Positions 31,724-48,349 of a DNA stretch of 64,000 nt are shown here, in pieces. Made by a program: the position numbers and the translations under genes. The notes beneath the pieces were generated by a model that was not told the DNA's origin, searched no databases, and worked only from the letters and a program-made list of their open reading frames with translations. The stretch spans positions 924 to 64,923 of the forward strand of contig SLCH01000011.1 in the NCBI GenBank assembly GCA_007125915.1, in the 5' to 3' direction. How positions within the stretch are numbered: the first letter of the stretch is position 1; each line of letters opens with the position of its first letter. The DNA comes from Syntrophobacteraceae bacterium. GTDB taxonomy: Bacteria > Desulfobacterota > Syntrophobacteria > Syntrophobacterales > Syntrophobacteraceae.

Positions 31724-31896
31724 AGATCCTGGAAAGACTCCATTGCCCGCGTGATGCATCGTCGAGAGCCATTGAAGCTGTCTGTGGCCCTTGATTGGTG
31801 CGGGTGCTTCTTTTCCATTGCCTCAAGCCCAAAGGGTTGGTTCCCATCGATGAGTGACTGGGTGAAAGAGAGCAGAAAGGGTCTTTTCCCAACACC

Positions 31897-33102: not shown

Positions 33103-33321
33103 GGTTTTCACCAGGTCCTTGAAGCGATGTTCCCCATATTGTGCCGGTGCCTATACCAAATGAATGAAACATGATTATTGTAGGGATCTGAAAGGATTCT
33201 CCAGGTAGAGAGTCGACTTTGGCGGGGCGATTTGCTTTTTTCGTTTGTCCAATGGTGCAGGCGCATCCCCAAATGAAGAAATCATGTGTGTGACAGAATC
33301 ATAAGCACTGGAGGGTTTTGA

Positions 33322-33756: not shown

Positions 33757-34455
33757 ATGATACCCATTCGTGACATCAACCCCTCCAAAGGCACACCGGT
33801 GGTGAACTACACGATCATTGCCACCTGTTGTCTCATATTCATTTACGAACTCACCCTGGGTCCCGATGTGGAGAGGTTTCTTTACCGTTACGGTCTCATT
33901 CCCGCGCGTTTCTTTCAGGGGGCGGAAACTCCCGGCGTTTCTTTCCTGGAGCTTCTGACCCCTTTCTTTTCTTCCATGTTTCTTCACGGCGGATGGCTCC
34001 ACGTCATTGGGAACATGTGGATCCTGCACATTTTTGGCGACAATGTGGAGGGGGAGCTTGGCCATGGGCGATACCTTGTCTTTTATCTGCTTTGCGGTTT
34101 CATTGCGGGCATGCTGCATGTGGTGGTGCATCCGGCATCACCCATCCCGACCGTGGGGGCGAGCGGTGCCGTTGCGGGCGTGATGGGAGCCTATTTTGTC
34201 CTTTACCCGAGAGCCAAAGTGCTCACCCTGGTGCCCATTTTCTTCTTTTTCACCATGGTGGAACTGCCCGCCTATGTTTTTCTGGGAATTTGGTTTCTGC
34301 TGCAGTTTTTCAGCGGCGCCTTCACTCTCCTTGCTTCGAGGGATGAAGTGGTGGGGATTGCCTGGTGGGCGCACGTGGGAGGATTCCTGGGGGGCATCGC
34401 CCTCCTGTTTGTCATGCGCGCCACGAGGCAACGGCAGAACAATCGTTCAAAGTGA
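33757..34455 (+). CDS. rhomboid-family intramembrane serine protease
   Basis: HGGWLHVIGNM, GASGAVAGVMGAY (catalytic Ser) and AHVGGFLGG (catalytic His). Confidence 0.85.
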   Translation: MIPIRDINPSKGTPVVNYTIIATCCLIFIYELTLGPDVERFLYRYGLIPARFFQGAETPGVSFLELLTPFFSSMFLHGGWLHVIGNMWILHIFGDNVEGELGHGRYLVFYLLCGFIAGMLHVVVHPASPIPTVGASGAVAGVMGAYFVLYPRAKVLTLVPIFFFFTMVELPAYVFLGIWFLLQFFSGAFTLLASRDEVVGIAWWAHVGGFLGGIALLFVMRATRQRQNNRSK

Positions 34456-34504
34456 GCTGTTCATGCTTTTATCCATCGCGTAACAGATTGTTTCCCGCCT
34501 TCGA

Positions 34505-36922
34505 TCATTGGAGTTTTTCTTTAAGAATTTCAATGGTCTCAGAAATTTCTTTGGGGGTCACTTCCCGACGCATCTTTTCCAGCTGCTGCATGGTTTTGGA
34601 AAAACGCATTCCCTCGGCGGCGCTGATCCACTCCAACTGGAGCCGCTCCGGACGAATGCCCCACTTTTCCATCTTCTTGCGAATCTTTTCCACACGCTTC
34701 TCCGTCCAGCGGTTGGCGTCGATGTAGTGGCAATCGCCAATGTGACAACCGCTCACCAGGACGATGGGTGCGCCTTTGTTAAGTCCGTGCCAGATGAAAC
34801 TCTCGTCCACGCGGCCCGAGCACATGGTGCGTATGAGTCGAACGTTGGGGGGATACTGGAGCCTGGATACTCCGGCGTAGTCAGCCCCGGCGTAGGAGCA
34901 CCAATTGCATGCGAAGGCGAGGATCTTTTCCTGGGAATCCAGTTCCAGCATTTGGTCGATCTGGGTGACGATCTGGCCGTCGGTGAAGTGGTTCATGGAA
35001 ATGGCGTCAAAGGGGCATTCGGCGGCACAGGTGCCGCAACCCGCACATGCCGCCGTGTTCACCATGGCGGGCGTTTTTTTCTTCTTATCCACGGTGATGG
35101 CGTTGTAGGAACACACTTCCGCGCACATGCCGCAGAATTTGCAGTCCTCAGCAACGACTTCCGCAGTGATGGGTTCCGTGAGAATTTCTCCCTTGTGCAT
35201 GAGCCTTATGGCGCGGACGGCGGCGGCGGAAGCCTGGGTCACCGTCTCCTTGATGTCCTTGGGGCCTTCGGAACATCCTGCGTAAAAGACTCCCCGGGTC
35301 GCTGCATCCACGGGCAGGAGTTTGGGGTGAGCCTCAAGGTAAAATCCGTCCGAATTGAGCTGAAGGCCTAGCATTTCCTGAAGTCGCCGCGTCCCCCTGG
35401 AAGGCTGTACACCGACGGCCAGCACCAGCATGTCAAAAACGTAGAATTCCAGTTCTCCCGTGGCCGCGTTTTCAACGGCCACTTTCAGGCTTCCGTCGGG
35501 CAGCTCCTCCACATTGCCCGGCAAACCTCGAACATAATGCACTCCCAGGCGCCGGCTTCTCTTGTAGAGATCTTCAAATCCTTTCCCAAAAGCACGAATG
35601 TCAATGTAGAACACCTTGAGGTCAATGTTGGGGGCGTGCTCCTTGAGCACCAGCGTGCTCTTGATCGTGTTCATGCAGCACACGTTGGAGCAGTAGGAGT
35701 GGCCCTTGCGCGCGGACCTGGACCCCACGCACTGTATGAATCCAATGGAGGAGGGGTGCTTTCTGTCTTTGGGGCGAATGAGGTTTCCCCTGGTGGGGCC
35801 TCCCGCATTGATGAGCCTTTCAAATTCAATGCTTGTGAGCACGTTTTCAAATCGCGTGTAGCCGTACTCATCCATTTCCGTTGGATCGTAGGGCTCCATG
35901 CCCGTGGCCACAATGATGCTTCCCACTTTCTCCGTGATTTCTTTGTCTGACATGTGGAAATTGATGCACCCTTTATCGCAGGCTTCCACGCATTTGGCGC
36001 AAACCACGGGGTTGTGCCCGAGACATTCGCTGGTGTTGACCACGTATGCCGAGGGCACCGCCTGGGGAAAAGGAGAATAGATGGCCTTGCGCGAAGAGAG
36101 TCCGTGGTTGAATTCATCGGGTCGAACCACGGGACAGACGGTGGCGCAATCTCCGCATGCGGTGCACTCTTTTTCGTCCACATAACGGGCTTTCTTGATG
36201 ATTTTGACCTCGAAATTGCCAACGTAGCCCTTCACGTCGGCCACTTCGCTCATGGAGTAGAGCTTGATTCGGGGATGTCGACCGACATCCGTCATTTTCG
36301 GACCCAGTATTCAGATGGAGCAGTCCATGGTGGGAAAGGTTTTGTCAAGCTGGGCCATGATGCCTCCAATGGAGGGCTTCTTTTCCACCAGAACCACGTC
36401 GTAACCATTGTCCGCCAGGTCAAGGGATGCCTGTATGCCGGCCACTCCTCCTCCTATGACGAGAGTCCGCTTGGTGAGGGGGAGCGTTTCGGGTTCCAGG
36501 GGCTGCAGCTGTCTCACGCGGGCGATGGCCATCTGCGTCAGATCCACAGCCTTGGCCGTGGCGGCATCGGGCTCATGCATGTGCACCCAGCTGCAGTGCT
36601 CACGAAGATTGGCCATTTCCAGCAAGTATGGATTCAATCCAGCGGAAAGGAGCATCTGGCGGAAAGTGGGTTCGTGAAGCCTGGGTGAACACGATGCCAC
36701 CACGATCCGGTCGAGCTTATTTTCGGTGATGTCGTTTTTGATGCTCTCCTGGCCTGGATCGGAGCAGGCATAGGAAATGTCACGCGCCACGATCACATCG
36801 TCGTGTTTTTCCGCCAGTTGGCTCACCTGGTTGCAATTGACCGTTTTGGCGATATTGAGTCCGCAGTGGCACACGTAGACTCCAATGCGAGGTTGATGGT
36901 GCTGCATTTTTGCGCTCTCCAT
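34505..36922 (-). CDS. hdrA: HdrA-like flavoprotein with C-terminal MvhD domain; selenoprotein (in-frame UGA at 36311-36313)
   Basis: ORFs 36311..36922 and 34505..36295 are in the same frame, separated only by TGA plus five sense codons. Read-through gives KTFPTMDCSI-U-ILGPKM, the conserved HdrA DCSxC/U-ILxPK motif. GGGVAG FAD site, several CxxCxxCxxxCP clusters and a C-terminal CNWCSYAGADYAG MvhD motif are present. Confidence 0.8.
36273..36290 (-). promoter_or_regulatory. SECIS-like hairpin downstream of the hdrA UGA
   Basis: 20 nt after the UGA: GGAUGUC-GGUC-GACAUCC, a perfect 7-bp stem with a GGUC apical loop as in E. coli fdhF SECIS. Confidence 0.6.
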
Positions 36923-37057
36923 GAAAAAACACTCCCTATTGAGGTGATTTCGCGTTTTCAGCGAAACCTGCTTTGGACGAAAGTCGATGGTTCTTCGTTG
37001 CCCACGGCGTTCAATGGTTTCCGTGCAATCCCCGTGAACGGAACTCCAGGACTCGAA

Positions 37058-38638
37058 TCATTCCCACTTGATGGTTTTGGCCATGAGTCCCGTGAGATCC
37101 ATGATCTCCATTTCAATCTCATTCCCTCGAAAAGGGTCTTGCATGGCACATTTCAAATGGATTTGGCATTTGGGGCAGGCGGTTACAAGAAGGTCGCTCC
37201 CTGTGGCCCTGGCTTGCCGCAGCCGCTTGTTCTGAAGAGCCTTCGTGTAGCTGTCACAACCAGTCCAGGCACAATTCCCGCAACAGAGAGCAGATATGCC
37301 CCGATCCTGCATTTCCTTGATTCCCTGGGGACGCAGACGCTGCAAAAGCTTCCTGGGAAGCTCAGGCCGCCCTTCAAGCCTGCTGAGGCGGCAGGGATCC
37401 TGGAAAGTGATTCTGTGTTCCGTCTCCTCAAAATCTACGGCGCCTTTGCTGATTTCTTTTTCCAGGAGATCGTAGACATGGGTCACCTTGATGTTCAGTG
37501 GAATGCCCGCGCGGGGGTAATCGTGGGAAAGTGTGCGAAAACATTCAGGGCAGGAGGTGACGATTTCTTCAATGCCCATTTCTTGGAAAGCTTTCGCGTT
37601 GAGACGGGCGAGGCGGAGAAAGTTCTCCTCATCACCGGACCAGAGGAGGTCGTGTCCGCAGCACCTTTCTCCCGGGTGGATCGCTGGAAAAATATCGAAA
37701 AAATTCATCAGTCTGAGGCTGTCCGAAAGAATGTCGCTGGTGTTCACACCCAGATGATGGCGAAAGAAAGTGTCGAAATAAGGTGCGCAGCCCCCGAAAT
37801 AGAGGATGGGGCTTTTTTCGTCTGTTTTAATGTCTGGGGGCAGCCAGTCCCAGTGGTTGATGGTCAGATGGGGAGAAGTCATGGTTCGCATGAGGGACTG
37901 GAAAAATCCGCCGTGACTCTGTTGACCTTCAACACCGCCGCATTTGAGCATGTGGCGCATCTCACGAATGAAGTCCGGAAAATTGACCACGGAGGGACAC
38001 CGGTCTGTGCAGAGGCCGCACGTGAGGCAGGACCACACGTCTTCCACCACGGCGGGGGAGTCCAGGTCGCCCCCGATGATGGCATTGGCCATGGCTCTGG
38101 GGGAAAAGCTTTTCCCCGAGAGGGTCACAGGGCAGGCAGAAGAGCATTTGCCGCAATCCTGGCAGGCGTAAACGTCGTGTGCCGCCACAATTCGGGCCGT
38201 TTCCATGTGAGAGAGAGCGGCCACGTCCCGGGGGTTTGGTGTGACAGGACTTTTTCCAATTGTTTCAATGACATCGCTAAAATCCTGCAGGAACCGTAAC
38301 AGTGCCTCGGATTCTTCCGGGAGAAACATGGCCAGGCGCAACCGGTCCCCCCCCAATCCCAGGAGGTGGAGAATTCCCCGTGTGTCTTCCACGTTGCGCT
38401 CCGCCGACTCGGTGCCGCTGCCGTAGCGGCATGATCCTGGTTCACAGCCCACAAGGGCAACGCCGTCCGCTCCCATTTCGAACGATTTGAAGAGAAGGGA
38501 TTTGCTCATTCTTCCGGTGCAGGGAATTCGAATCATGCGGACCTCCACGGGAATGTCCGCATCGTTGTCCTGCAGCGACTGAAAAGCGGCATGAGGGCCC
38601 CAGTTGCAGATAAACAATATGATTTTTGGTTTGTCCAT
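37058..38638 (-). CDS. MvhD-HdrC-HdrB fusion protein
   Basis: N-terminal MvhD-like domain (FICNW...IPCTGR). Two CxxCxxCxxxCP ferredoxin motifs. Two CCG domains (ERCCGHD..CPEC; LCCGNC..CPKC). Confidence 0.8.
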   Translation of the reverse strand: MDKPKIILFICNWGPHAAFQSLQDNDADIPVEVRMIRIPCTGRMSKSLLFKSFEMGADGVALVGCEPGSCRYGSGTESAERNVEDTRGILHLLGLGGDRLRLAMFLPEESEALLRFLQDFSDVIETIGKSPVTPNPRDVAALSHMETARIVAAHDVYACQDCGKCSSACPVTLSGKSFSPRAMANAIIGGDLDSPAVVEDVWSCLTCGLCTDRCPSVVNFPDFIREMRHMLKCGGVEGQQSHGGFFQSLMRTMTSPHLTINHWDWLPPDIKTDEKSPILYFGGCAPYFDTFFRHHLGVNTSDILSDSLRLMNFFDIFPAIHPGERCCGHDLLWSGDEENFLRLARLNAKAFQEMGIEEIVTSCPECFRTLSHDYPRAGIPLNIKVTHVYDLLEKEISKGAVDFEETEHRITFQDPCRLSRLEGRPELPRKLLQRLRPQGIKEMQDRGISALCCGNCAWTGCDSYTKALQNKRLRQARATGSDLLVTACPKCQIHLKCAMQDPFRGNEIEMEIMDLTGLMAKTIKWE

Positions 38639-38679
38639 TGCGCTCTCGTTCTTCTATGAATTGTAGACCACGAACTGTT

Positions 38680-41600
38680 TCACATGAGAATTTCTTCCAG
38701 CATCTGCTCCAGATAGCCGTGGTCGCGATAGGGACTGTCTGCTGCGTTGGAAGGACAGACCGTGATGCAGTTGCCACAGCCCTTGCAAAGGGCTTCGTCT
38801 ATGACCGAGTACCATCCGCCTATGTCGTTGCTCTTGAAGCTGATGGCCTGGTAAGGGCAGACCCGCATGCACCTGCCGCAGCCGCGGCAAAGATTTGAAT
38901 CCACCACCACAGTGTAGCCCTTGTTCTGGCGGGGACTCCGCGGCATGACACAAGCTGCCAGAATGGCTGCAGCCTTCCCTTTGGTCCGCTCAGAAACCTT
39001 GATTCCCGGGGGGTTTGCCAGGAAGAGCCCCGGAATGGAAGTGGCTCCGGGAGCAAAAAAAGGCACTCCTGTGACACCTCGAGCCTGCATGGAGCTCTCC
39101 ACGGTGTGGGGAGGAAGCTGCTCTGTGGCCGTGTAGGGAATTTTCCGCCGGCTTTTCTCGCCGAGTATGACGGCGCCCACTTGAAACACCTGCCGGGAAC
39201 CATCGGTTTCGACGGTGACCTGGAGGTTGCCCACCGTTCCTTTGAGGCCCACCACCTTTGAACCTTTGAAACAGTGAATGTTCGGATGTTCCAAATCCTT
39301 TGAGAGGGCCTTGTGAGGTGGGCCAAACAGAAATACCTCCATGCCTGCCTCTGCAAGGGTCATGGCGCTATCGAGGGGAGCCGGGGACTCCCCGATGACC
39401 GCCGTGGTGAAATTATAGGGACGGGCCGGAGTGGGCATGGCTTTGAGGTGGCCTGCCCGGCCCACGGAACGTTCCAGCAGGCCTTGGAAGCGCTCCAGGG
39501 CCAGGGGTTGGTCTGTTTTGAGGAGGCGGAGAACTTCCCCTCTCAAATTGCACGTTTCCACCATGGCCCTGTTGATGCCTGTGCCGTTGAAAAGGGAGTG
39601 CTTGAGCCGTGTGCGCTGGTCCGAACAGGCCGTGCAGATGAAGTCAAGGGGGCAGCAGACACAGGAGCCCAGCACAAGGCGCGTGAGATTCTTTTCCCGA
39701 ATGGCGCGGAGAACGGAGGACGCTCCTGCAGGTACACAAGCCGAAGGGAGCACCTCCACATGTTCCACGAAGGGAATTCCGCCAAGGTTTTCAAGAATCT
39801 TGTTGAGTTCCTCAGGCCATCCATAAGAATCATTGCAGCGGCAGACAAATATTCCCAGACGGAGCGAATCGGAAAGCTGGGGGCCTGCGGCGGCAAAAGA
39901 GAGCCCGTGGCCCCTCATGCGCTGCGTGGTGCCTCCCAACAGAATGAGAGCTTCCGCGGCCACAGCGAATCCCCGAAGCGTCATGGCATAAACATTTTCT
40001 TGGGAGGATTTGGCGTTATAGGCTCTTAAAACGTCTTCTCCCCTGATGTTGGGAGCCAGCTCGGGGTCGGCGATGATCACCACTCCTGCATGTTCGACTT
40101 CTTCTCTCCACTGGGCGTCATGGTGTATGGTGTTCCTGGTTACGCACACCTCGCCGCACTCCAGGCATTCGGAACAAACCCCGCAATTGAGGCAGCGGGA
40201 TGCTTCCGCGAGGACCTGCTCCTCATGGAGACCCAGGGCCACCTCTCCAAACCCTTCACAGCGTACGGATGGCTGAACCTCCGGCATGTGAACCCTCGCA
40301 AGAGAAGGGGTGTGAGGAGGAATTGCAGGAAAATCCAGGTTCTCGGGTCTGCAGGTTCTCACCATTTCCGGTTCTTTGCCCGAAAGCTTCCTCACCACCG
40401 AGCGTGCCGCTTCTCTGCCTGAAGCCATGGCCCTGACCACGCTGGAGGGACCTTCCACGGCGTCCCCTGCGGCGAAGACGTCGAGCAGGGAAGTGGTGCA
40501 TTGGGTGTCCACCTGAATGAACCCACCCTCTGACGTCAGAACACAGGTGCCTTCATCGGCCTTATTGGGACTGCCCGTCTGGCCGATGGCCACGATGGCG
40601 CGATCAAAATCTTCTTCAAAAGTTTTCCCTTTCGAATCGATTCGAGGCCAGCAAATGCCATTGGCGTCGGGCTCCCCCGGCTTGGTGGCTGCGCATCTGA
40701 TTCGGTTGAGCCGGCCATCGGCGCCCAGAAAAGCCGTGACCTGAGTGGAGGTGACGAGGCGAATGCCTTCTTCAAGGGCTGCATTCACCTCCTCCCCATC
40801 CGCTGGTATGGAATCGGCGGGAAACCATGAAAGGACCGTGACCTTTGCTCCCAGGCGCAGGGCAGCACGAGCTGCATCAAAAGCCGAATTGCCGTCACCG
40901 ATGACGGCGATTTTCTCCGGCAGCCGCTCCACTTCACCCCTGTACACGGATCGCAGAAAATCAAGGCACCCGTGAACATTGGCCAGTTCTTCTCCCGGAA
41001 CTCGGAGACTGCGGTCGTGCCAGGTGCCCGTGGCCAGTATGACGGCCTTGAATTGGGCCATCAGTTCCTGAGGACCCTTTTGGGGGTCGATGGGACTTGA
41101 AGGCTTGAATTCCACCCCCAGCCTCCTGATGTTTTCGATTTCGTGGTCGAGAATCTCCCGCGGCAAACGGTAGGGACCCAGGCCGTAGCGAAGCAGGCCT
41201 CCCAGTTCTTTTTCTTTCTCAAAGACAGTCACGGGGTAGCCCTGACGAGCCAGCTCCCCAGCTGCGGCAAGTCCTGCGGGGCCCGATCCTACAACGGCGA
41301 TGTGTTCCTTTCTCCAGGGTGAGGGAGCGGGGCTTTTTTCACCACAATGCTTCATTTCGTAATCAGCGAGAAAGCGCTTGATGTCCCTGATGGCAACGGG
41401 TTCGTCCAGGTCTTTTCTTCTGCATGAAATCTCGCAGGGGTGTGTGCAGATGCGCCCGCAAATGCCCGGCAGAACGTTGTCACGCCGAATGAGTTCCAGG
41501 GCTTCTGAGTATCTTCCCGCTCGGGCAAGAGCCACGTAGCCCTGTGCGTTGACACCCAGTGGGCAAGAGGCCTGGCAAAGAGGCTGCTGTCTTTTGTCTA

Positions 41601-42036
41601 TGTGAGGTCGCCCCGGAAGTGCCTGGCGGCTGGAAAACCGAATGGGTTTGCCTCCATCAGGGGCCGTGGCGGGACACACTTCCACACAGCGCCCACAGAG
41701 GACACAAAGGTCGGGGTCCACGTGATCGGGGGGGATTTCGATATGAGCGCAAAACCCCTGTGGCGTGTGCCGCAGGGAGCGAAGGGTGCCCGGCAGGATG
41801 GTTCGAATTTTGGAATTGCGAAAAATTCTCAGCAGACCGGGCCGTAAGGCGTGGTTGGTGCGCTGACCCGATGCGAACCGGTATTCATCGCGGGCGAGCT
41901 TCACGTCGAGATCAAAGGCGGAATCGACCAGAGTGACGGGAATTCCCATTTCTCCCAATTTGTTGGTGGCGGCTATCCCCGCTGGGTTGGCCCCTATGAC
42001 CAGCACTTTCTGAAGGCGATCTTTAGGAGTTTTCAT
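38680..42036 (-). CDS. hdrL: giant HdrA-related flavoprotein with inserted GltD/NfnB-like NAD(P)H module and ferredoxin domains (HdrL-like)
   Basis: VLVIGANPAGIAA. GltD-like C..CPLGV..IRRDNVLPGICGRICTHPCE..C plus VVGSGPAGLAAAGELARQG. A further dinucleotide fold and C-terminal 2x[4Fe-4S] (CRGCGRCMRVCP, CKGCGNCITVCP). Confidence 0.7.
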   Translation of the reverse strand: MKTPKDRLQKVLVIGANPAGIAATNKLGEMGIPVTLVDSAFDLDVKLARDEYRFASGQRTNHALRPGLLRIFRNSKIRTILPGTLRSLRHTPQGFCAHIEIPPDHVDPDLCVLCGRCVEVCPATAPDGGKPIRFSSRQALPGRPHIDKRQQPLCQASCPLGVNAQGYVALARAGRYSEALELIRRDNVLPGICGRICTHPCEISCRRKDLDEPVAIRDIKRFLADYEMKHCGEKSPAPSPWRKEHIAVVGSGPAGLAAAGELARQGYPVTVFEKEKELGGLLRYGLGPYRLPREILDHEIENIRRLGVEFKPSSPIDPQKGPQELMAQFKAVILATGTWHDRSLRVPGEELANVHGCLDFLRSVYRGEVERLPEKIAVIGDGNSAFDAARAALRLGAKVTVLSWFPADSIPADGEEVNAALEEGIRLVTSTQVTAFLGADGRLNRIRCAATKPGEPDANGICWPRIDSKGKTFEEDFDRAIVAIGQTGSPNKADEGTCVLTSEGGFIQVDTQCTTSLLDVFAAGDAVEGPSSVVRAMASGREAARSVVRKLSGKEPEMVRTCRPENLDFPAIPPHTPSLARVHMPEVQPSVRCEGFGEVALGLHEEQVLAEASRCLNCGVCSECLECGEVCVTRNTIHHDAQWREEVEHAGVVIIADPELAPNIRGEDVLRAYNAKSSQENVYAMTLRGFAVAAEALILLGGTTQRMRGHGLSFAAAGPQLSDSLRLGIFVCRCNDSYGWPEELNKILENLGGIPFVEHVEVLPSACVPAGASSVLRAIREKNLTRLVLGSCVCCPLDFICTACSDQRTRLKHSLFNGTGINRAMVETCNLRGEVLRLLKTDQPLALERFQGLLERSVGRAGHLKAMPTPARPYNFTTAVIGESPAPLDSAMTLAEAGMEVFLFGPPHKALSKDLEHPNIHCFKGSKVVGLKGTVGNLQVTVETDGSRQVFQVGAVILGEKSRRKIPYTATEQLPPHTVESSMQARGVTGVPFFAPGATSIPGLFLANPPGIKVSERTKGKAAAILAACVMPRSPRQNKGYTVVVDSNLCRGCGRCMRVCPYQAISFKSNDIGGWYSVIDEALCKGCGNCITVCPSNAADSPYRDHGYLEQMLEEILM

Positions 42037-42638
42037 GACTTGGCTCCTTTCTTGCCCGCCGCCTTTTTCTCGATCCCCTTGAGAATTGCCGCGCCGTAAT
42101 CGTATCCCTTGTGAAAGGCAGTGGAATTGAGTTCTTCCGTGCCCTTGGGAACAGATTTGACCACAGTTGCGTGCAGGGCGTCCTTGGTGACCACGTCGCT
42201 CACGGCTGACAGGAAACCCAGCATGACGATGTTCGCCATCATTTTCCGGCCCAGCTCTTCGGCAATGCGTGTGGCAGGGACCCTGTAAAGGGTCCGGTCG
42301 CTTCCCTCAGAGATGCGGACCAGGTCCTGGTCCACGATGAGCATTCCGTCGGACCGGACGGAATTGGCATACTTGTCGTACCCCCCCTGAGACAGGCACA
42401 GGACGATATGGGGAATGCGCACGTAAGGGTAATGAATGGTGGACTGGGAGATGATCACCTGTGCACTGCATGCACCTCCCCTGGCTTCGGGACCGTAAGA
42501 CTGGGTGAGGGTGCTCTCCTTGCGGTCCACAAGACTTGCGGCTTTGCCGAGTATCTGGCCGGCCAAAACGATGCCTTGACCTCCAAACCCTGTGATGAGC
42601 ACTTCCTTGTGTTGGGTAGAAGCTGTTTTAGTTGCCAT
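42033..42638 (-). CDS. korC: 2-oxoacid:ferredoxin oxidoreductase gamma subunit
   Basis: ITGFGGQGIVLAGQILG motif. The stop overlaps the hdrL start (ATGA). Confidence 0.75.
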   Translation of the reverse strand: MATKTASTQHKEVLITGFGGQGIVLAGQILGKAASLVDRKESTLTQSYGPEARGGACSAQVIISQSTIHYPYVRIPHIVLCLSQGGYDKYANSVRSDGMLIVDQDLVRISEGSDRTLYRVPATRIAEELGRKMMANIVMLGFLSAVSDVVTKDALHATVVKSVPKGTEELNSTAFHKGYDYGAAILKGIEKKAAGKKGAKS

Positions 42639-42734
42639 CCTGTTGATTTCCCTCTCCGTGATGAGCAGCGAGTGGCGAGCGCAGGCAATGAAGAAAATGC
42701 GGTTTTCAGTTCACCACTTCCTGGGTGCTGCTCC

Positions 42735-43577
42735 CTACATGCAGGCCGCCGGATCCAGACGGCACGTTTTTTCGTAAATATCCGTAAAAGTGGGGCGATC
42801 CACGTTGACGAATGTGCCAAGAGTGATGCCTTTCTGATAATCGAGAATAATGTCCGCGGGGTGAGCGTCATTTTTCACGATGGATTTCTCCTGATAGAAA
42901 CGAAGAGAATCCAGGGGCCTTTCCCGGTTGCGCCGGCCGTAACCCGTCGGACAGGGCGCCAGGACTTCGATGAATGAAAACCCCCGCCGCTGCAGGGCTT
43001 CTTCTATGGACTTGGTGAGTTCCCGAGTGTGCAGAATGGTCCACCTGGCCACATAGGTGGCTCCCGAAGCGAAGGCCAGCAGAGGAAGGTTGAAGGGCGG
43101 TTCGGGATTTCCCATGGGTGTGGTGGTGGTTTTGCTCATGGAGGGAGTGGTGGCGGCCACCTGTCCCCCTGTCATGCCGTAGTTGAGGTTGTTGACGCAA
43201 ATGACCGTGATGTCCATGTTCCGCCGTGCCCCATGAATGAAATGGTTGCCGCCGATGGCGAAAAGGTCTCCATCACCGCTGAAAACGACCACGTTCAACT
43301 CGGGATTTCCCAGCTTCATTCCAGTGGCGAAGGGAATGGCGCGGCCATGTGTGGTGTGGTAGGAATCCAGATTGGTATAACCGGGCACTCGTGCTGAACA
43401 GCCGATTCCGGAAACCATGGTTGTTTTCTGAAGGTCGATGCCGCTGGATTTCATGGCGATGAGGCAGGCGGAAAATGCTGTTCCGATGCCGCAGCCGGGG
43501 CACCAGATGTGTGGAATTCTGTCCGTGCGGACCAGAGAGTCCAGTGGGTGCGTCAATTGGTTTTTTCTTTTAGTCAT
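42735..43577 (-). CDS. korB: 2-oxoacid:ferredoxin oxidoreductase beta (TPP-binding) subunit
   Basis: WCPGCGIG.., GDGD.FAIGGNH TPP motif. Confidence 0.8.
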   Translation of the reverse strand: MTKRKNQLTHPLDSLVRTDRIPHIWCPGCGIGTAFSACLIAMKSSGIDLQKTTMVSGIGCSARVPGYTNLDSYHTTHGRAIPFATGMKLGNPELNVVVFSGDGDLFAIGGNHFIHGARRNMDITVICVNNLNYGMTGGQVAATTPSMSKTTTTPMGNPEPPFNLPLLAFASGATYVARWTILHTRELTKSIEEALQRRGFSFIEVLAPCPTGYGRRNRERPLDSLRFYQEKSIVKNDAHPADIILDYQKGITLGTFVNVDRPTFTDIYEKTCRLDPAACM

Positions 43578-43614
43578 GAATGAGGTCCCCACAATCTTTA
43601 GATTGAATCGCTTT

Positions 43615-44763
43615 TCATTTGCTGATGGCTTCCAGGGATTCCAGGATGCGGTCCGGAGAGATCACCGTCCCTCCCGCGTGGCCAACCAAAAAGGCGGGGC
43701 ATTGGCCCCGGGAACAGCGCTCCACTTCCAGGTGAATCTGACCCAGGTTGATTTCCACCGTGACCAGTGCTTTCATCCTTTTGGCCAGTGAGGCGATGAG
43801 CTCTTCTGGAAAGGGCCACACGGTGATCAGTCGCAGAAGGCCGGCCTTGATTCCCTTTTCCCTGGCTTCATCCACTGCGGCAAGGCTGCTTCGCGCAGAG
43901 ACACCGTAGGAGATGAGAGCGATCTCCGCATCATCGAGACGGTAGCTTTCCGTCTCGATGATGCGGTGAAGATTGTTGCGAATCTTGCCGACGATACGCG
44001 CCACCAGTTTTTCATGAGCATCGGGGGACATGACGGGATATCCGCGTTCGTCGTGGGTGAGGCCCGTCACGTGGATGCCGTACCCCTCTCCGGCGGCGGC
44101 CATGGGGGGAATTCCGTCGGGACCCGGCTGAAAGGGTTTGAAACGATCCTTGCGGCCTTTGGGCAGTTTGCGCGTCTGAAGCTTGATGGCAGCGGCCTCG
44201 GGTATGACCACCTTCTCGCTCAGGTGTCCGGTCACCTCGTCTGCCATGATGAGGACCGGCAGGCGAAAGATTTCACTGAGATTGAAAGCGGTGATGGTCT
44301 GATAGAACATTTCCTGGGGTGAAGAGGGTGCCAGGGCAATGATCTCATAATGACCATGCGAGCCCCAGCGGGCCTGCATCATGTCTCCCTGCGCGGGCAT
44401 GGTGGGCAGCCCTGTGGAAGGGCCGGCCCGTTGCACATTCACTAAAACACAGGGGGTTTCCGTGTAAATGCCGAGCCCGAGATTTTCCATCATCAGGCTG
44501 AACCCGGGCCCTGAAGTGGCTGTCATGCTCTTTGCTCCGGCGCAGGAAGCTCCCAGCACTGAGGCCATGGCGGCTATTTCATCCTCCATTTGTATGAAGG
44601 TGCCCCCCACTTCGGGCAGGTGCAGAGCCATGTGCTCCGCGATTTCCGTGGCCGGAGTGATGGGGTAGGCGCCAAAAAAGCGGCACCCGGCTGCCAGTGC
44701 GCCCTCGGCACACGCTTCGTCCCCCGTCAAGAAATGCTCACCCGTCAAAACTTCTGGTCTCAT
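43615..44763 (-). CDS. korA: 2-oxoacid:ferredoxin oxidoreductase alpha subunit
   Basis: GAYPITPATEIAEHMA..FIQMEDEIAAMA pattern (Kor/Oor-like). Substrate is not determinable by eye. Confidence 0.75.
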   Translation of the reverse strand: MRPEVLTGEHFLTGDEACAEGALAAGCRFFGAYPITPATEIAEHMALHLPEVGGTFIQMEDEIAAMASVLGASCAGAKSMTATSGPGFSLMMENLGLGIYTETPCVLVNVQRAGPSTGLPTMPAQGDMMQARWGSHGHYEIIALAPSSPQEMFYQTITAFNLSEIFRLPVLIMADEVTGHLSEKVVIPEAAAIKLQTRKLPKGRKDRFKPFQPGPDGIPPMAAAGEGYGIHVTGLTHDERGYPVMSPDAHEKLVARIVGKIRNNLHRIIETESYRLDDAEIALISYGVSARSSLAAVDEAREKGIKAGLLRLITVWPFPEELIASLAKRMKALVTVEINLGQIHLEVERCSRGQCPAFLVGHAGGTVISPDRILESLEAISK

Positions 44764-44974
44764 AGACTCTCTTTCCTTCACCCAAGTGGTTGTTTTCCCA
44801 CTGAGAAGGTTTCAAAATGCCATGAATGATTTTCGGAGGGCATATTTTCAAAGGGGTATTCTTACCAAGTCCCCCTTGGCCGTGTGAGAGATGGCTGCCC
44901 TCAATGGATCACTCTCTAATTCACCGGTTAGAAAAAATCGGCCGCTCTCCACCAATGGCCCTGCAGAGGAGGGG

Positions 44975-45244
44975 TCATGAGGATGCGGTTTGCGCCTCCA
45001 CGGAATAAATGGCCAAATCAGGGCATATGGTCTCGCAGTAATGGCAGTTCACACATGCCCCTTCCTTCTTGATCCGGGGAGGGTGATAGCCTCTGGCATT
45101 GAAGTGGGGAGACTCTTCAAGGACATCACGGGGACAGTAGACGATGCAGAAACCGCAGCCTTTGCATCGATCTTCGATGATATGAACGACTCCCTGTGTG
45201 ACTTCAACTTCTGTTGCATCCAGTGGAACACGCCAAAACTTCAT
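44975..45244 (-). CDS. korD: 2-oxoacid:ferredoxin oxidoreductase delta subunit (2x[4Fe-4S] ferredoxin)
   Basis: CKGCGFCIVYCP and CVNCHYCETICP. Start trimmed to MKFWRV. Confidence 0.7.
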   Translation of the reverse strand: MKFWRVPLDATEVEVTQGVVHIIEDRCKGCGFCIVYCPRDVLEESPHFNARGYHPPRIKKEGACVNCHYCETICPDLAIYSVEAQTASS

Positions 45245-45780
45245 GTTCACCCATCCTCGTTCAAATAATTCGATCATCCATTCCAAATGCCTGGGAACGG
45301 CACGAAAGGTCAAAGGTCAAGGGGCCGTATTAGAAGCATGCAGGGTATTCAGGGCTTTGATATGGGCTGAAAACGCCAGTTTGAAGGCCTCCATCTCAAC
45401 CCGCCCTTAAAAACAAAGGGGGTGTTAACCGCGAGAAGGCTCTCTTGACCTGAACTTTCCTCTATATCACGAAAATATGGACTTAAGTCAAGGTGTTTCT
45501 GGATCATGTGCGGGGTTAAATGGTTAAAGGGGTGCCATTTTTGAGGGGGTATTCGGCCTTTTTGAGTTTTTGGCCGAGAGTGGCGGTAATCTTGCTCACA
45601 CATGTCCCTTCCATGGAACATGAAGCGTCATTCTAGATGAGAAGGGCACTCCGCGATCGTGGAGGGAGGGCGGAGGATGTGAAGCCGCCAGTTCCTGTGG
45701 CGGGCCGTTGGAGAAGGTTTCGGTGGCCTTCCCTTTTGAGAAGAATTGATTAGCGGATCCTGGGCAGGGTCATGATGGCC

Positions 45781-45880: not shown

Positions 45881-48349
45881 TTATCCGCAGTGAGGGCAGC
45901 TGCCTGGCCCTTCGTCTTCCGTTTTTTTGCCGTTTTCCATGTCTTTGCCCCATTCTTTGACTATTTTGGCAATCTCATGCAATCGGTCGTCCACTTTTCT
46001 GAAGAGGGTGCCCTCGGGATAAGTCCCATCGGGTTGCAACTCTCCCGCTTCCATGCCCGTGAGGATCTGGATCCCCTGTTCGACCGTGTCCACGGGCCAC
46101 AGGTGAAATTTGCCCTCCTGCACGGCTTCGATCACTTCCTTTTTGAGCATGAGGTTGCGGATGTTTTTGGAGGGGACCATAACCCCCTGTTCCCCTGTGA
46201 GTCCCTTGTGCTTGCAGATGTCAAAGAAACCCTCCACCTTGTAGTTCACTCCGCCGATGGGCTGGATTTCACCTTTCTGGCTCACGGAGCCCGTCACGGC
46301 AATGCCCTGCTTGATGGGCACCCGCGAAATGGCACTCAGAAGGGCGTAAAACTCGGTGCTGGAAGCACTGTCCCCGTCCACCATGCCATAGCTCTGCTCA
46401 AAGCAAAGAGACGCTGTGAGGGAAATGGGCTTGTTTTGAGCGAACCGTTCTTTCATCAGGTTGGTCAATATGATGAGTCCCTTGGTGTGGGTGTTGCCGC
46501 TCATTTTGGATTCCCGTTCGATGGAAACCATTCCCTCCCGGCCCACGGAGACGGTTGCGGTGATGCGATTGGGTTTGCCAAAGACGTGGTCCCCTGCCGA
46601 GAGAACGGCGAGGCCGTTGACCTGCCCCACCTTGCCGCCTTCCGTTTCCACCCAGAAAATGTCTTTTTGAATCAGTTCCTTGATGCGTTCTTCAATGAGG
46701 TTCGAGCGGTAGATGCGTTTGCGAACGGTTTCTTCCACATGTTTTCCCTCGATGAACTCGGCTCCATCGAGGCTGGCAAAATAGTTGGCCTCCTTCAAGA
46801 GGTCACTGATATTCCCCAGTTCGAGAGTCAGTTTGTCGTGGTCTTCCGTCAGCTCCATGCTGTATTCGAGAACTCTTGCCACTCCCGAGCGGTCCAGGTG
46901 CCGAAGGTTGTGGTCCTTGCAATAAAGACTCATCATGCGGGCGCATTCCATGGTGGACGTGTCCTTGCGGTCCATCTGGGTGTCCATGTGCGCTTTCACC
47001 TTGAACAGTTTCTGAAATCTTTCATCATACGTGTAGAGCAGCTGATAAATGTACGGGTCGCCGGTGAGGACGATTTTGATATCCAGGGGAACGGGTTCGG
47101 GACGTATGGTGCGAGTGCTGAGAAACCCGTAGAGCTCCCCGATGTCTTCGATCTTGATCTCTTTGTCTCTCAGGGCACGCTTCATGGCTTCATAGGAGAT
47201 GAACCATTTCAGGAGATCCAGGGACTTCATGACGAGGTATCCCCCGTTGGCCTTGTGCATGGCCCCCGCTTTGATCATGGTGTGATCGGTGAAAAGGGCT
47301 CCAAACCAGGCTTGCCTTTCAATGGAACCGAAGAGGTTGGGGTAGGCGGGATTGGACTCGATGACGACGGGGGCTCCCTCCGTTTCCGAGTTGTCGATGA
47401 GAACGTTCACGTCGTACTTCCTGAACACGGTCTCCCTTTGGGGAACGGGGAAGGGGGCTCCCGGCTGCTGCTGTTGCGCTTCGGGTTTTTTCTTGAAATC
47501 GTCGATGTTCTCCAGAATGTCTTCCTGAACTTCCTTGAGGTAATCCCGCACATTGGCTTCGTCTTTATACTTTTCTTCGTAGCTGTCCATGAGCTGGCCC
47601 ACCACGAAAAGAGCGATTTCGTTGTCGAGCTTGGTGTGCTTTTCCTTAAAGTCTGCCTCCGCTTCCCGAATCTTTTTGATGGATTCCTTCATCTTTTCGT
47701 GAAGGTCATCACTTTTCTTGCGAAGCTCCGCCCTTTCCTCTTCGCTCAGGTGCCTCAGGTCTTCCTGAGTCATGGGCTCCCCGTCTTTGTTGGCGGGTAT
47801 GATGACCATCCCCACCTGAGAAAACTGGAGAATGAACCCCTGCTCCTTGGCTTCCTGTGAAAGCTCATCGATGAATTCACGCCGCTGCCGTTCAAAGGCC
47901 TGATGAACTTCGCTTTCCTTGGCCCTGTAATCTTCACTGTCGAAGACTTCCGGGATCTTGGCCTGAAGGGTTGCGATGAATTCGTTCATGTCCTTTTTCA
48001 ACTGCTTCCCAAGGCCTGCGGTGAGGCGAAGGCTTTTGGGCTTGTCCTGTTCTTTGAAATTGTAGACATAGCACCAGTCCGGCGGAGTCGGTTCTTTTCT
48101 CGCCTGCTCTTCAATGAAGGATTTGGCCATGTAGGTCAGGCCGGCCTTGGGGGGGCCCGCAATGAAAATGTTGTATCCGCCCTCTTTCATGCCCATGCCG
48201 AACTTGATGGCGTCAATGGCTCTTTCCTGCCCCACCACGCGTTCCTCCAGTGCTTCAAGGGAAGCTGTGGAGTCAAAGGGCAGAGAATCCGGGTCGATGT
48301 GGGCCCGCAGCTTTTCCACGGGCAGTTCTTGAACAGGTTGATTGGCCAT
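45881..48349 (-). CDS. Lon-like protease with degenerate Walker A (LonC-type)
   Basis: C-terminal Lon S16 domain (DGDSASSTEFYALLSAI.., ..VTGSVSQKGEIQPIGGVNYKVEGFF). P-loop position reads GPPKAGLT. Long charged coiled-coil insertion. Confidence 0.75.
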   Translation of the reverse strand: MANQPVQELPVEKLRAHIDPDSLPFDSTASLEALEERVVGQERAIDAIKFGMGMKEGGYNIFIAGPPKAGLTYMAKSFIEEQARKEPTPPDWCYVYNFKEQDKPKSLRLTAGLGKQLKKDMNEFIATLQAKIPEVFDSEDYRAKESEVHQAFERQRREFIDELSQEAKEQGFILQFSQVGMVIIPANKDGEPMTQEDLRHLSEEERAELRKKSDDLHEKMKESIKKIREAEADFKEKHTKLDNEIALFVVGQLMDSYEEKYKDEANVRDYLKEVQEDILENIDDFKKKPEAQQQQPGAPFPVPQRETVFRKYDVNVLIDNSETEGAPVVIESNPAYPNLFGSIERQAWFGALFTDHTMIKAGAMHKANGGYLVMKSLDLLKWFISYEAMKRALRDKEIKIEDIGELYGFLSTRTIRPEPVPLDIKIVLTGDPYIYQLLYTYDERFQKLFKVKAHMDTQMDRKDTSTMECARMMSLYCKDHNLRHLDRSGVARVLEYSMELTEDHDKLTLELGNISDLLKEANYFASLDGAEFIEGKHVEETVRKRIYRSNLIEERIKELIQKDIFWVETEGGKVGQVNGLAVLSAGDHVFGKPNRITATVSVGREGMVSIERESKMSGNTHTKGLIILTNLMKERFAQNKPISLTASLCFEQSYGMVDGDSASSTEFYALLSAISRVPIKQGIAVTGSVSQKGEIQPIGGVNYKVEGFFDICKHKGLTGEQGVMVPSKNIRNLMLKKEVIEAVQEGKFHLWPVDTVEQGIQILTGMEAGELQPDGTYPEGTLFRKVDDRLHEIAKIVKEWGKDMENGKKTEDEGPGSCPHCG

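What the first reader, a model, noticed from the sequence alone, without database searches (positions are those of the whole stretch)
34505..45244. Four-subunit 2-oxoacid:ferredoxin oxidoreductase fused into one co-directional cluster with HdrL, MvhD-HdrCB and Sec-HdrA
korD-korA-korB-korC, an HdrL-like 1118-aa flavoprotein, an MvhD-HdrC-HdrB fusion and HdrA(Sec)-MvhD all lie on the minus strand, with no divergent gene between them. The korC stop and hdrL start share ATGA (42033-42036), which argues for co-translation. HdrL carries a GltD/NfnB-like NAD(P)H module. The HdrCB fusion carries two CCG domains, the disulfide-reducing site type. HdrA is the canonical bifurcating flavoprotein. No hydrogenase, formate dehydrogenase or Qmo/Dsr genes interrupt the set. 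One inference is that ferredoxin turnover at a 2-oxoacid (oxidative decarboxylation or reductive carboxylation) is wired to a flavin-based bifurcating or confurcating NAD(P)H/disulfide module. I do not know of a characterised complex with this composition, but I cannot search the literature.
Basis: inference. Interest (0 to 1): 0.65.

Follow-up and report, generated by a model that had tools for sequence, protein, structure and literature searches.

The report
Conserved Kor–HdrL–Hdr redox operon
Seven genes for a CO2-handling 2-oxoacid enzyme, an NADH-type flavoprotein and a selenium-containing electron-splitting heterodisulfide reductase form one strictly conserved, co-transcribed operon in sulfate-reducer relatives; it probably encodes an uncharacterised enzyme complex that passes very low-potential electrons straight to the 2-oxoacid enzyme.

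Summary
korD-korA-korB-korC, hdrL, mvhD-hdrC-hdrB and hdrA(Sec)-mvhD lie head to tail on the minus strand at 34505-45244, and korC and hdrL share ATGA.

The same seven genes, in the same order, occur wherever the contig allows in 89 related loci. korC sits directly before hdrL in 85/85, mvhD-hdrCB follows in 79/79 and hdrA follows in 62/62. The flanking genes are not conserved. The korC/hdrL junction is the tightest (7 nt or less in 84/85).

One 11.3-kb contig from a soda-lake metatranscriptome covers exactly 34159-45445.

HdrA has UGA plus a co-varying SECIS-like hairpin in 64/64 loci.

The Hdr-linked KorA proteins form a separate clade. The two nearest outgroups with readable context are stand-alone korDABC clusters.

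The best reading is one complex. NADH would enter at HdrL. HdrA would split the electrons, sending the low-potential branch straight to Kor (probably 2-oxoacid synthesis from acyl-CoA and CO2) and the high-potential branch to a disulfide at HdrCB. The direction, the substrate and the physical association are all inferred.

I found no biochemical characterisation. A possibly equivalent cluster was named "HdrAL/POR" in Syntrophobacter fumaroxidans, and an analogous kor-hdr-flx cluster has been proposed for tubeworm symbionts. I rate it a new variant of a known kind, with moderately high interest.

The parts
44975..45244 (-). korD: delta subunit with two [4Fe-4S] clusters (89 aa from the ATG at 45244; an upstream TTG at 45313 is less likely)
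   Evidence: Two CxxCxxCxxxC motifs. Pfam Fer4. Best NCBIfam hits are OGOR_delta and OorD, both below cutoff. GAGGA lies 8 nt before the ATG.
43615..44781 (-). korA: alpha subunit of a four-subunit 2-oxoacid:ferredoxin oxidoreductase
   Evidence: POR_N plus PFOR_II. NCBIfam NF006412 scores 568 bits, above its cutoff of 411. YPITP motif present. PDB 1yd7 matches at 2e-122 and the 2-oxoglutarate synthase 8ys5 at 3e-79.
42735..43592 (-). korB: TPP-binding beta subunit
   Evidence: TPP_enzyme_C. GDGD motif and CPGC...GIGC cysteines. Best NCBIfam hits are Kor-type beta subunits, with Por/Vor much weaker.
42033..42638 (-). korC: gamma subunit; its TGA stop overlaps the hdrL ATG (ATGA at 42033-42036)
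   Evidence: Pfam POR. Overlap seen. The junction is 7 nt or less in 84/85 related loci.
38680..42036 (-). hdrL: 1118-aa flavoprotein. Residues ~150-555 are NfnB/GltD-like (two FeS clusters, FAD, NAD(P)H). They are inserted among degenerate HdrA-like segments (9-135 and 726-1117) that end in a 2x[4Fe-4S] domain.
   Evidence: Pfam and NCBIfam. PDB hits are to NfnB-like chains plus the HdrA C-terminus. BLASTP against the window's own HdrA. SWF replaces YRR.
37058..38638 (-). mvhD-hdrC-hdrB fusion: MvhD-like domain, two cubane-cluster motifs and two complete CCG domains (the putative disulfide-reducing site)
   Evidence: Pfam FlpD, Fer4 and CCG x2. Cysteine patterns at 284-366 and 416-491. PDB hits to MvhD, to HdrC, and only weakly to HdrB.
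34505..36922 (-). hdrA(Sec)-mvhD: full-length HdrA with a fused C-terminal MvhD domain
   Evidence: NCBIfam HdrA2 scores 1205.7 bits, above its cutoff of 1100. It aligns end to end with Methanothermococcus HdrA 5ODC_A at E = 4e-235.
36311..36313 (-). In-frame UGA read as selenocysteine (residue 204, motif DCSI-U-IL). It aligns with Cys197 of 5ODC HdrA.
   Evidence: TGA is present at this codon in 64/64 related loci.
36273..36290 (-). SECIS-like hairpin GGAUGUC-GGUC-GACAUCC, starting 23 nt after the U of the UGA
   Evidence: It is conserved in the related loci, with a paired U-A to C-G change.
34159..45445 (-). Extent of the single metatranscriptome contig that covers the whole operon (the inferred polycistronic RNA)
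   Evidence: Run X4, contig of 11,287 nt at depth 25.3. The flanks are on separate contigs with different depths.
45461..45491 (-). Possible promoter: TTGACT, 19 nt, then TG-a-TATAGA, just upstream of the RNA contig's end. Read by eye; weak.
   Evidence: Sequence. The consensus scan did not report it.

Best explanation
The seven genes are one operon encoding one functional unit. That unit is a soluble, HdrA-type flavin-based electron-bifurcating system with its low-potential branch wired directly to a four-subunit 2-oxoacid:ferredoxin oxidoreductase.

Proposed path:
- NADH is oxidised at the NfnB-like flavin of HdrL.
- Electrons pass through FeS clusters and the MvhD domains to the FAD of HdrA.
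- HdrA splits each electron pair.
- The high-potential electron goes through the HdrC-like clusters to the two CCG (non-cubane cluster) domains and reduces a disulfide, either DsrC-like or unknown.
- The low-potential electron goes through ferredoxin-type domains and KorD to KorAB, instead of to free ferredoxin.
- There it drives acyl-CoA + CO2 -> 2-oxoacid. Succinyl-CoA -> 2-oxoglutarate is most likely.
- The system is expected to be reversible.

HdrL's degenerate HdrA-like parts probably pair with HdrA as a pseudo-heterodimer.

Shown here: gene content, intact cofactor motifs, strict synteny, tight korC/hdrL coupling, one in situ RNA contig, and a universal Sec codon. Inferred: physical association, electron path, direction, NADH preference, substrate and the identity of the disulfide.
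For: - Domains and motifs are intact in all seven proteins.
- HdrA matches the structurally characterised bifurcating HdrA end to end (E = 4e-235).
- Synteny holds in 85/85, 79/79 and 62/62 loci at 54-88% HdrL identity, while the flanks vary.
- korC/hdrL is the tightest junction: a 4-nt overlap in 41 loci, a 1-nt overlap in 19, and 7 nt or less in 84/85.
- One RNA contig spans exactly the operon. Depth and contigs are uneven elsewhere in the window, which looks like RNA rather than DNA.
- The Hdr-linked KorA proteins are a separate clade, and the two readable outgroup contexts lack hdr.
- Precedents for direct wiring of an Hdr low-potential branch to a catalytic module: the BCRII Bam complex (bioRxiv 10.64898/2026.04.10.717634) and the methanogen Hdr-Fmd supercomplexes (PDB 7bkb family and PMC13580544, as listed).
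- The same logic was proposed for korDABC-hdrA-flxDCBA in tubeworm symbionts (PMC6315080).
- HdrA2B2C2 homologues in bacteria were predicted to use NADH and DsrC-like disulfides (PMC5296606).
Against: - There is no protein-level evidence for a complex.
- A possibly equivalent cluster was not detected in S. fumaroxidans proteomes under any condition tested (PMC5947623). I did not verify that cluster's equivalence by sequence.
- Direction cannot be read from sequence.
- The substrate is unassigned. Only KorA passes an NCBIfam cutoff, and that model is generic.
- The HdrB-like part is only weakly similar to methanogen HdrB (E = 1.5e-05).
- In BCRII the homologous BamD passes electrons to ETF and not to a disulfide.
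- The RNA evidence comes from unstranded assembled contigs of one run.
- The AlphaFold model of HdrL was too poor to use (pLDDT 56.8).
Confidence: 0.55

Rival explanations
1. Same complex, but physiologically oxidative. The 2-oxoacid is decarboxylated, and its low-potential electrons are confurcated at HdrA with thiol-derived electrons to reduce NAD+. Alternatively they simply flow to NAD+ and a disulfide. This would be an NAD+-linked 2-oxoacid dehydrogenase, in the manner of the five-subunit phenylglyoxylate dehydrogenase PadEFGHI, which adds a GltD-like subunit to an OFOR (from my own knowledge).
For: OFORs are reversible, and many carriers are organic-acid oxidisers of the Syntrophobacteraceae and Desulfobacterales. 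The GltD/NfnB-like module next to korC resembles the Pad arrangement; NCBIfam Pad models give only weak hits.
Against: Confurcation would oxidise thiols, which is the opposite of what a sulfate reducer needs for DsrC. Sending electrons at about -500 mV to a disulfide without coupling wastes energy. A complete, highly conserved, Sec-containing bifurcating HdrA is unnecessary for a plain dehydrogenase.
Confidence: 0.2
2. The genes are co-transcribed but the proteins are separate. Kor and an HdrL-HdrA-HdrCB enzyme are distinct soluble enzymes that share a free ferredoxin pool, and the operon only ensures co-expression.
For: All evidence here is genetic or transcriptional. KorDABC relatives work as stand-alone enzymes.
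Against: The korC/hdrL junction is tighter than the junctions within kor itself. Order is invariant across 54-88% HdrL identity. KorA forms a distinct clade. No ferredoxin gene lies within the unit.
Confidence: 0.15
3. The HdrCB-like module does not reduce a disulfide. It hands high-potential electrons to another protein or carrier such as ETF or a quinone-linked partner, as BamD does in class II benzoyl-CoA reductase.
For: BamD is an HdrBC-like fusion that delivers electrons to ETF. The window's HdrB part is far from methanogen HdrB. The MvhD domain fused to it has CNWG in place of CNWC.
Against: [quoted passage not shown] No etf gene is conserved next to the operon.
Confidence: 0.1

Closest known systems
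korDABC-hdrA-flxDCBA (with hdrCB and tfrAB) in the rTCA gene cluster of tubeworm symbionts and Thioflavicoccus mobilis (Rubin-Blum et al. 2019, PMC6315080)
   Same: A four-subunit korDABC lies directly next to hdrA, an MvhD-like gene, hdrCB and an NADH-oxidising module, all co-directional. The authors propose a bifurcating complex that feeds electrons directly to the 2-oxoglutarate synthase.
   Different: The NADH module there is FlxABCD, not an HdrL fusion. hdrC and hdrB are separate genes placed upstream. tfrAB, acl and other rTCA genes are in that cluster and absent here. The hosts are Gammaproteobacteria. That system is also uncharacterised biochemically.
'HdrAL/POR' cluster Sfum_0012-0018 of Syntrophobacter fumaroxidans (Sedano-Nunez et al. 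2018, PMC5947623)
   Same: It is described as an HdrA/HdrL-type heterodisulfide reductase associated with a 2-oxoacid (pyruvate):ferredoxin oxidoreductase, spans seven locus tags, and comes from the same family of bacteria.
   Different: It gets only a one-sentence mention and was not detected in the proteome. I could not compare the sequences, and S. fumaroxidans was not among the 120 best HdrL hits (all 58% identity or more), so orthology is unverified. It is annotated as POR, whereas the window's enzyme is Kor/Oor-like by NCBIfam.
HdrL of Desulfobacterium autotrophicum (Strittmatter et al. 2009, PMC2702500)
   Same: A large soluble protein that combines HdrA-like and GltD-like NADH-binding parts and is co-located with mvhD.
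   Different: Those HdrL genes sit next to dsrABC, fdh or hdrA, not kor. Two of them contain Sec, and the window's HdrL has none.
Methanosarcina HdrA2B2C2 and methanogen Mvh/Fdh-HdrABC(-Fmd) complexes
   Same: HdrA with a fused MvhD domain passes the NCBIfam HdrA2 cutoff and aligns fully with 5ODC HdrA. A low-potential branch can feed a CO2-fixing enzyme directly in the Hdr-Fmd supercomplexes (PDB 7bkb family; PMC13580544, listed).
   Different: The donor there is H2, formate or F420H2, not NAD(P)H. The acceptor there is CoM-S-S-CoB, which bacteria are not known to make (from my own knowledge). The CO2-fixing partner there is formylmethanofuran dehydrogenase, not an OFOR.
Class II benzoyl-CoA reductase Bam[(BC)2DEFGHI]2 (bioRxiv 10.64898/2026.04.10.717634)
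   Same: An HdrA-type bifurcating module from the same broad group of anaerobes (former Deltaproteobacteria) takes input that includes NADH. It has an MvhD-like adaptor containing Sec and an HdrBC-like fusion on the high-potential side. Its low-potential branch is hard-wired to a catalytic subunit. BamE is a fused HdrA pseudo-dimer with one degenerate half, much like the HdrA plus HdrL pair proposed here.
   Different: The input module there is NuoEFG-like, not NfnB-like. The low-potential consumer there is a tungsten aromatic-ring reductase. BamD's distal cluster is degenerate and it reduces ETF.
NfnAB / NfnB-like subunits (PDB 5jca_L, 9n5u_A, 8oh5_C)
   Same: HdrL residues ~150-555 align over the whole NfnB fold, including the Fer4_20 clusters and both nucleotide-binding motifs.
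   Different: There is no NfnA partner. YRR is replaced by an invariant SWF. The module is embedded in HdrA-like sequence.

Membership tests
Four-subunit 2-oxoacid:ferredoxin oxidoreductase (Kor/Oor type) | Alpha subunit with POR_N and PFOR_II domains and the YPITP motif | tested here: met
   Pfam. NF006412 scores 568 bits, above its cutoff of 411. AYPITP is in the translation.
Four-subunit 2-oxoacid:ferredoxin oxidoreductase (Kor/Oor type) | Beta subunit with a TPP-binding domain (GDG motif) and cysteines for one [4Fe-4S] cluster | tested here: met
   TPP_enzyme_C at 8.5e-34. SGDGD and CPGCG/GIGC are in the translation. The NCBIfam beta models score below their cutoffs.
Four-subunit 2-oxoacid:ferredoxin oxidoreductase (Kor/Oor type) | Separate gamma (POR domain) and delta (2x[4Fe-4S]) subunits in the gene order D-A-B-C | tested here: met
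Four-subunit 2-oxoacid:ferredoxin oxidoreductase (Kor/Oor type) | Substrate is 2-oxoglutarate | tested here: inconclusive
   The best-scoring named models are 2-oxoglutarate or generic 2-oxoacid types, and Por/Vor/Ior models score much lower. All the 2-oxoglutarate-specific models are below cutoff. PDB 1yd7 (unspecified 2-keto acid) scores higher than 8ys5 (2-oxoglutarate synthase).
HdrA (electron-bifurcating flavoprotein of HdrABC) | Full domain set: N-terminal cluster domain, TrxR-like FAD domain with GxGxxG, inserted and C-terminal ferredoxin domains | tested here: met
   Residues 10-659 align with 3-650 of 5ODC_A at E = 4e-235. GGGVAG is present, as are three CxxCxxCxxxC motifs. The NCBIfam HdrA2 model is passed.
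HdrA (electron-bifurcating flavoprotein of HdrABC) | Electron-bifurcating activity | not testable with these tools
   This needs enzyme assays.
HdrBC / HdrD-type disulfide reductase | Two CCG domains with the complete cysteine pattern, preceded by two cubane-cluster motifs | tested here: met
   Regex matches at 284-366 and 416-491, with motifs at 159 and 204. Pfam CCG x2.
HdrBC / HdrD-type disulfide reductase | CoM-S-S-CoB as substrate | tested here: inconclusive
   Similarity to methanogen HdrB is weak (E = 1.5e-05), and the NCBIfam HdrC models are far below cutoff. From my own knowledge, bacteria are not known to make CoB, so another disulfide is expected.
HdrL (Strittmatter et al. 2009) | One large soluble protein that combines HdrA-like sequence with a GltD-like NAD(P)H-binding module | tested here: met
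   Definition from PMC2702500.
HdrL (Strittmatter et al. 2009) | Co-located with an MvhD gene or domain | tested here: met
   The next gene begins with an MvhD (FlpD) domain.
NfnB / GltD family | Fer4_20 two-cluster domain, an FAD Rossmann fold and an NAD(P)H Rossmann fold | tested here: met
   Pfam Fer4_20 and Pyr_redox_2. GSGPAG and GDGNSA are present. Alignments to 9n5u, 5jca, 9bov and 8oh5.
NfnB / GltD family | The Tyr-Arg-Arg motif after the second beta strand of the NADPH site | tested here: not met
   HdrL has S-W-F where all four aligned structures have Y-R-R. W404 and F405 are invariant in 14 orthologues. I take this as a hint of NADH preference; that the motif binds the 2'-phosphate of NADPH is from my own knowledge.
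Bacterial selenoprotein gene | An in-frame UGA at a Cys position of homologues, followed by a stem-loop within about 40 nt | tested here: met
   The UGA aligns with Cys197 of 5ODC_A. TGA is present in 64/64 loci, and the hairpin with a GGUC loop is conserved with a compensatory pair change. The fold energy alone is not exceptional (z = -0.13).
Bacterial selenoprotein gene | selA, selB, selC and selD present in the genome | not tested
   Only 64 kb is available. No tRNA-Sec was reported in the window.
kor-flx-hdr rTCA cluster (PMC6315080) | flxABCD, tfrAB and acl genes accompany kor and hdr | tested here: not met
   None of these is in the operon or conserved in its flanks.

The most novel reading that the evidence does not exclude
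The operon encodes a previously uncharacterised type of CO2-fixing supercomplex: an NADH-driven, disulfide-coupled, selenium-dependent electron-bifurcating 2-oxoacid synthase. An NfnB-type flavin (HdrL) and an HdrA-type flavin would work in series, and low-potential electrons would never leave the protein as free ferredoxin. It would let sulfate-reducer relatives make 2-oxoglutarate, or another 2-oxoacid, from NADH at the expense of DsrC-type disulfide reduction.
Probability: 0.35. Interest if true: 0.8.

Novelty: new variant of a known kind. Interest (0 to 1): 0.6.

Why it matters
2-Oxoacid synthases need electrons near -500 mV, and how anaerobes with NADH-centred metabolism supply them is only partly understood. 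A hard-wired NADH -> HdrA -> Kor route would add a new output module to the Hdr family of bifurcating machines, alongside Fmd in methanogens and BamB in aromatic degraders. It would link carbon fixation or biosynthesis to thiol/disulfide (possibly DsrC) chemistry in sulfate-reducer relatives. It would also give the abundant but unexplained HdrL proteins a concrete role.

The system is directly testable. It occurs in a cultured organism (Desulforhabdus amnigena), it is transcribed in nature, and it is compact at seven genes and 10.7 kb.

Tried and rejected
1. An AlphaFold2 model of HdrL from a 14-sequence alignment gave mean pLDDT 56.8 and pTM 0.36. That is too poor for a fold search, so I used sequence comparisons instead.
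2. The consensus promoter and terminator scan gave no more sites than shuffled sequence, and none at the operon's edges. The promoter I list was read by eye and is weak.
3. Folding the SECIS region alone is not better than shuffles (z = -0.13). The case for the element rests on conservation and covariation.
4. I looked for extra conserved partners in the flanks, such as DsrC, ETF, ferredoxin or a thiol carrier. No family is present in more than 12 loci, out of 46-50 loci with more than 3 kb of flank on a given side.
5. The apparent loss of korB in locus L003 is a run of N in the scaffold.
6. Literature searches for HdrL plus oxoglutarate, Sfum_0012, and Kor/Hdr/bifurcation found no biochemical study. 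The Pereira et al. 2011 comparative genomics paper (PMC3119410) is not held, so I could not check whether it lists this cluster.
7. Substrate assignment from published specificity residues failed because I found no usable open paper.
8. A sigma-54 promoter upstream of korD was considered and rejected: the GG-to-GC spacing is 10 nt, not 12 (sequence).
9. Rfam finds nothing in the operon.

Full report
**Observation.** All seven ORFs lie on the minus strand at the stated coordinates.
- Pfam and NCBIfam confirm a four-subunit 2-oxoacid:ferredoxin oxidoreductase. KorD has two 4Fe-4S motifs, KorA has POR_N and PFOR_II, KorB has the TPP domain and KorC has the POR domain.
- HdrL is 1118 aa, with a GltD/NfnB-like core and HdrA-like pieces.
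- The 526-aa protein is an MvhD-HdrC-HdrB fusion with two complete CCG motifs.
- HdrA carries a fused MvhD domain and is interrupted by one TGA inside FPTMDCSI-U-ILGPK.
- The korC stop and the hdrL start share ATGA at 42033-42036. The other gaps are 22-193 nt, and nothing else is encoded between the genes.

**Conservation.** A scan of one genome per species with the HdrL protein gave six loci. Looking up an HdrL homologue 66% identical to the window's gave three more. A metagenome scan with an HdrL alignment gave 80 more.
- tblastn with the seven window proteins shows the same order and strand in every locus, as far as each contig reaches.
- korC lies immediately upstream of hdrL in 85/85 loci, mvhD-hdrCB lies downstream in 79/79, and hdrA follows in 62/62.
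- The one apparent exception, L003 without korB, is a run of N.
- HdrL identity ranges from 54 to 88%, KorA from 71 to 93% and HdrA from 72 to 94%.
- Genes outside the seven are not conserved. The commonest flank family occurs in 12 loci, out of 46-50 with more than 3 kb of flank on a given side. The unit therefore behaves as a self-contained module.
- The korC/hdrL junction is the tightest of all: a 4-nt overlap in 41 loci, a 1-nt overlap in 19, a 2-3 nt gap in 22, and 7 nt or less in 84/85. This is what translational coupling of two partners would look like.
- Named carriers are Syntrophobacteraceae, Desulfobacteraceae and other Thermodesulfobacteriota MAGs, with one MAG labelled only Pseudomonadota, plus the cultured sulfate reducer Desulforhabdus amnigena.

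**Transcription.** The window sequence occurs in soda-lake and alkaline-sediment metagenomes and in one metatranscriptome, run X4.
- In X4 a single assembled contig of 11,287 nt covers 34159-45445. That runs from about 200 nt upstream of korD to about 350 nt past the hdrA stop, at depth 25.3.
- The Lon gene upstream lies on a separate contig at depth 58, and the downstream side lies on small contigs at depth about 5.
- Elsewhere in the window, X4 depth varies from below 1 to 58, and reaches 537 at a tRNA. Its contigs follow gene units. The DNA run from the same sample is flat at about 20. X4 therefore behaves like RNA.
- The operon is among the better expressed units in this window.
- Caveats: these are unstranded assembled contigs from one run, so internal promoters and processing cannot be excluded.

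**Selenocysteine.** TGA occupies the same codon in 64/64 loci that include that part of hdrA.
- A hairpin, GGAUGYC-GGUC-GRCAUCC, starts 23 nt after the U of the UGA. It shows a paired U-A to C-G change.
- The residue aligns with Cys197 of Methanothermococcus HdrA, the second Cys of a CxxC motif.
- The BCRII preprint describes a Cys59-Cys62 disulfide beside the bifurcating FAD of the HdrA-like BamE, on the low-potential path. That the two motifs are equivalent is my inference.

**Are these ordinary kor genes?** A search of 1.84 billion cluster representatives with KorA found no representative above 58% identity.
- Among 68 Hdr-linked KorA sequences the minimum pairwise identity is 67.9% (median 76.7%). 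The maximum to any of 58 representatives is 60.5%.
- I looked up four of the nearest representatives. The two with enough contig to read, P0121 and P0124 (the latter in what looks like an archaeal context), are stand-alone korDABC clusters with no hdr. The other two contigs were too short to tell.
- The Hdr-linked Kor is thus a distinct lineage derived from ordinary four-subunit enzymes.
- Its substrate stays open. Kor/Oor-type models score far above Por, Vor and Ior models, but only the generic alpha-subunit model passes its cutoff. The best structure match is an unspecified Pyrococcus 2-keto-acid enzyme, ahead of a 2-oxoglutarate synthase.

**HdrL anatomy.**
- Residues ~150-555 match NfnB-like chains over their full length.
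- Residues 9-135 match the start of HdrA's TrxR-like domain. Residues 726-942 match HdrA's N-terminal domain plus the TrxR start. Residues 832-1117 match the rest of HdrA, including the C-terminal two-cluster domain.
- Both HdrA-like dinucleotide motifs are degenerate (GANPAG and GESPAP). The NfnB-like flavin is therefore probably the only catalytic flavin in HdrL.
- HdrL has S-W-F where all four aligned NfnB-like structures have Y-R-R after the NADPH-site beta strand. W404 and F405 are invariant in 14 orthologues. I read this as a hint of NADH preference; it is an inference.
- A degenerate HdrA-like scaffold next to a true HdrA recalls BamE, a fused HdrA pseudo-dimer with one non-bifurcating half.

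**Mechanism.** I propose the following.
- NADH is oxidised at HdrL, and electrons reach the HdrA FAD through FeS clusters and the MvhD domains.
- HdrA bifurcates. One electron goes to the CCG site of the HdrCB fusion, which reduces a disulfide (DsrC-like or unknown).
- The other electron goes through ferredoxin-type domains and KorD to KorAB. There it drives reductive carboxylation of an acyl-CoA, most likely succinyl-CoA to 2-oxoglutarate.
- From textbook potentials, NADH at -320 mV sits midway between about -500 mV for the 2-oxoacid couple and about -140 mV for a disulfide like CoM-S-S-CoB.
- In a sulfate reducer this direction yields both products the cell needs, a reduced thiol carrier and a 2-oxoacid. 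The reverse direction would oxidise thiols.
- The reaction should be reversible, and an oxidative role is the main rival. None of this is shown biochemically.

**What is known.** I found no characterised complex of this composition.
- The closest mention is one sentence on 'HdrAL/POR (Sfum_0012-0018)' in S. fumaroxidans, which was not detected in proteomes. I could not verify orthology.
- The closest analogue is korDABC-hdrA-flxDCBA with hdrCB and tfrAB in tubeworm symbionts. There a bifurcating complex feeding the 2-oxoglutarate synthase was proposed from synteny and expression.
- HdrL was defined in Desulfobacterium autotrophicum, next to other partners.
- Bacterial HdrA2 homologues were predicted to use NADH and DsrC-like disulfides.
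- Direct wiring of an Hdr low-potential branch to a catalytic module is established for the methanogen Hdr-Fmd supercomplexes (listed) and reported in a preprint for BCRII.

**Verdict.** This is a new variant of a known kind, a modular Hdr-type bifurcating system with a new pairing of input (HdrL) and output (Kor). It is widespread, expressed in nature and present in a culturable organism, which makes it a good experimental target.

Noticed in passing
window 4051-9029 (+): A methyl-transfer gene set. It comprises a B12-activation-domain protein (4051-4740), an MttB-family methyltransferase (4756-6285), a pterin-binding methyltransferase (6272-7096) and a second MttB-like gene (7812-9029). Rfam PYLIS_3 hits 5794-5893 above its gathering score, yet the ORF is open and the codon before the element is GGC. 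This looks like a non-pyrrolysine MttB homologue, possibly a quaternary-amine methyltransferase, which would fit a soda-lake organism.
   Followed up: partly
window 22642-27394 (+): Three consecutive Mrp/Nuo-type antiporter-like membrane subunit genes; I scanned two of them and both hit Proton_antipo_M. The region has a strongly negative AT skew (-0.25 to -0.32). It is almost silent in the metatranscriptome, at depth about 1-3.
   Followed up: partly
window 45881-48349 (-): A LonC/LonB-like AAA protease gene lies directly upstream of the operon on the same strand, but on its own RNA contig (45849-49127, depth 58). A Lon-like gene sits in the same position in a relative whose HdrL is 66% identical (L007), but it is not generally conserved.
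   Followed up: partly
window 34505-36922 (-): The NCBIfam 'exception' model for Methanosarcina HdrA2 passes its cutoff on this bacterial protein (1205.7 against 1100). Automatic annotation would therefore call it a CoB-CoM heterodisulfide reductase, although bacteria are not known to make that substrate.
   Followed up: no
window 37058-38638 (-), residues 11-14: The MvhD domain fused to HdrCB reads CNWG, where the MvhD domain fused to HdrA reads CNWC. One of the conserved cysteines is missing.
   Followed up: no
window 29052-30458 (+) and 31699-33111 (-): Two long ORFs (468 and 470 aa) have no Pfam match at 1e-5. Both regions are transcribed at low level in X4. Each overlaps a long ORF on the opposite strand, so it is not settled which strand codes.
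   Followed up: no
window 44782-44974: The korD-korA spacer is 193 nt here and about 230 nt in the closest relatives (L001, L010), against a median of 11 nt across all loci. No Rfam family matches it.
   Followed up: no
window 50578-62345 (+): Two sigma-54-dependent response regulators (50578-51984 and 54815-56200), a TPR protein, and the flagellar genes fliF (57644-59290) and fliI (61026-62345).
   Followed up: no
L003 1417-1516: A run of N in this public MAG scaffold hides korB and mimics a gene loss.
   Followed up: yes
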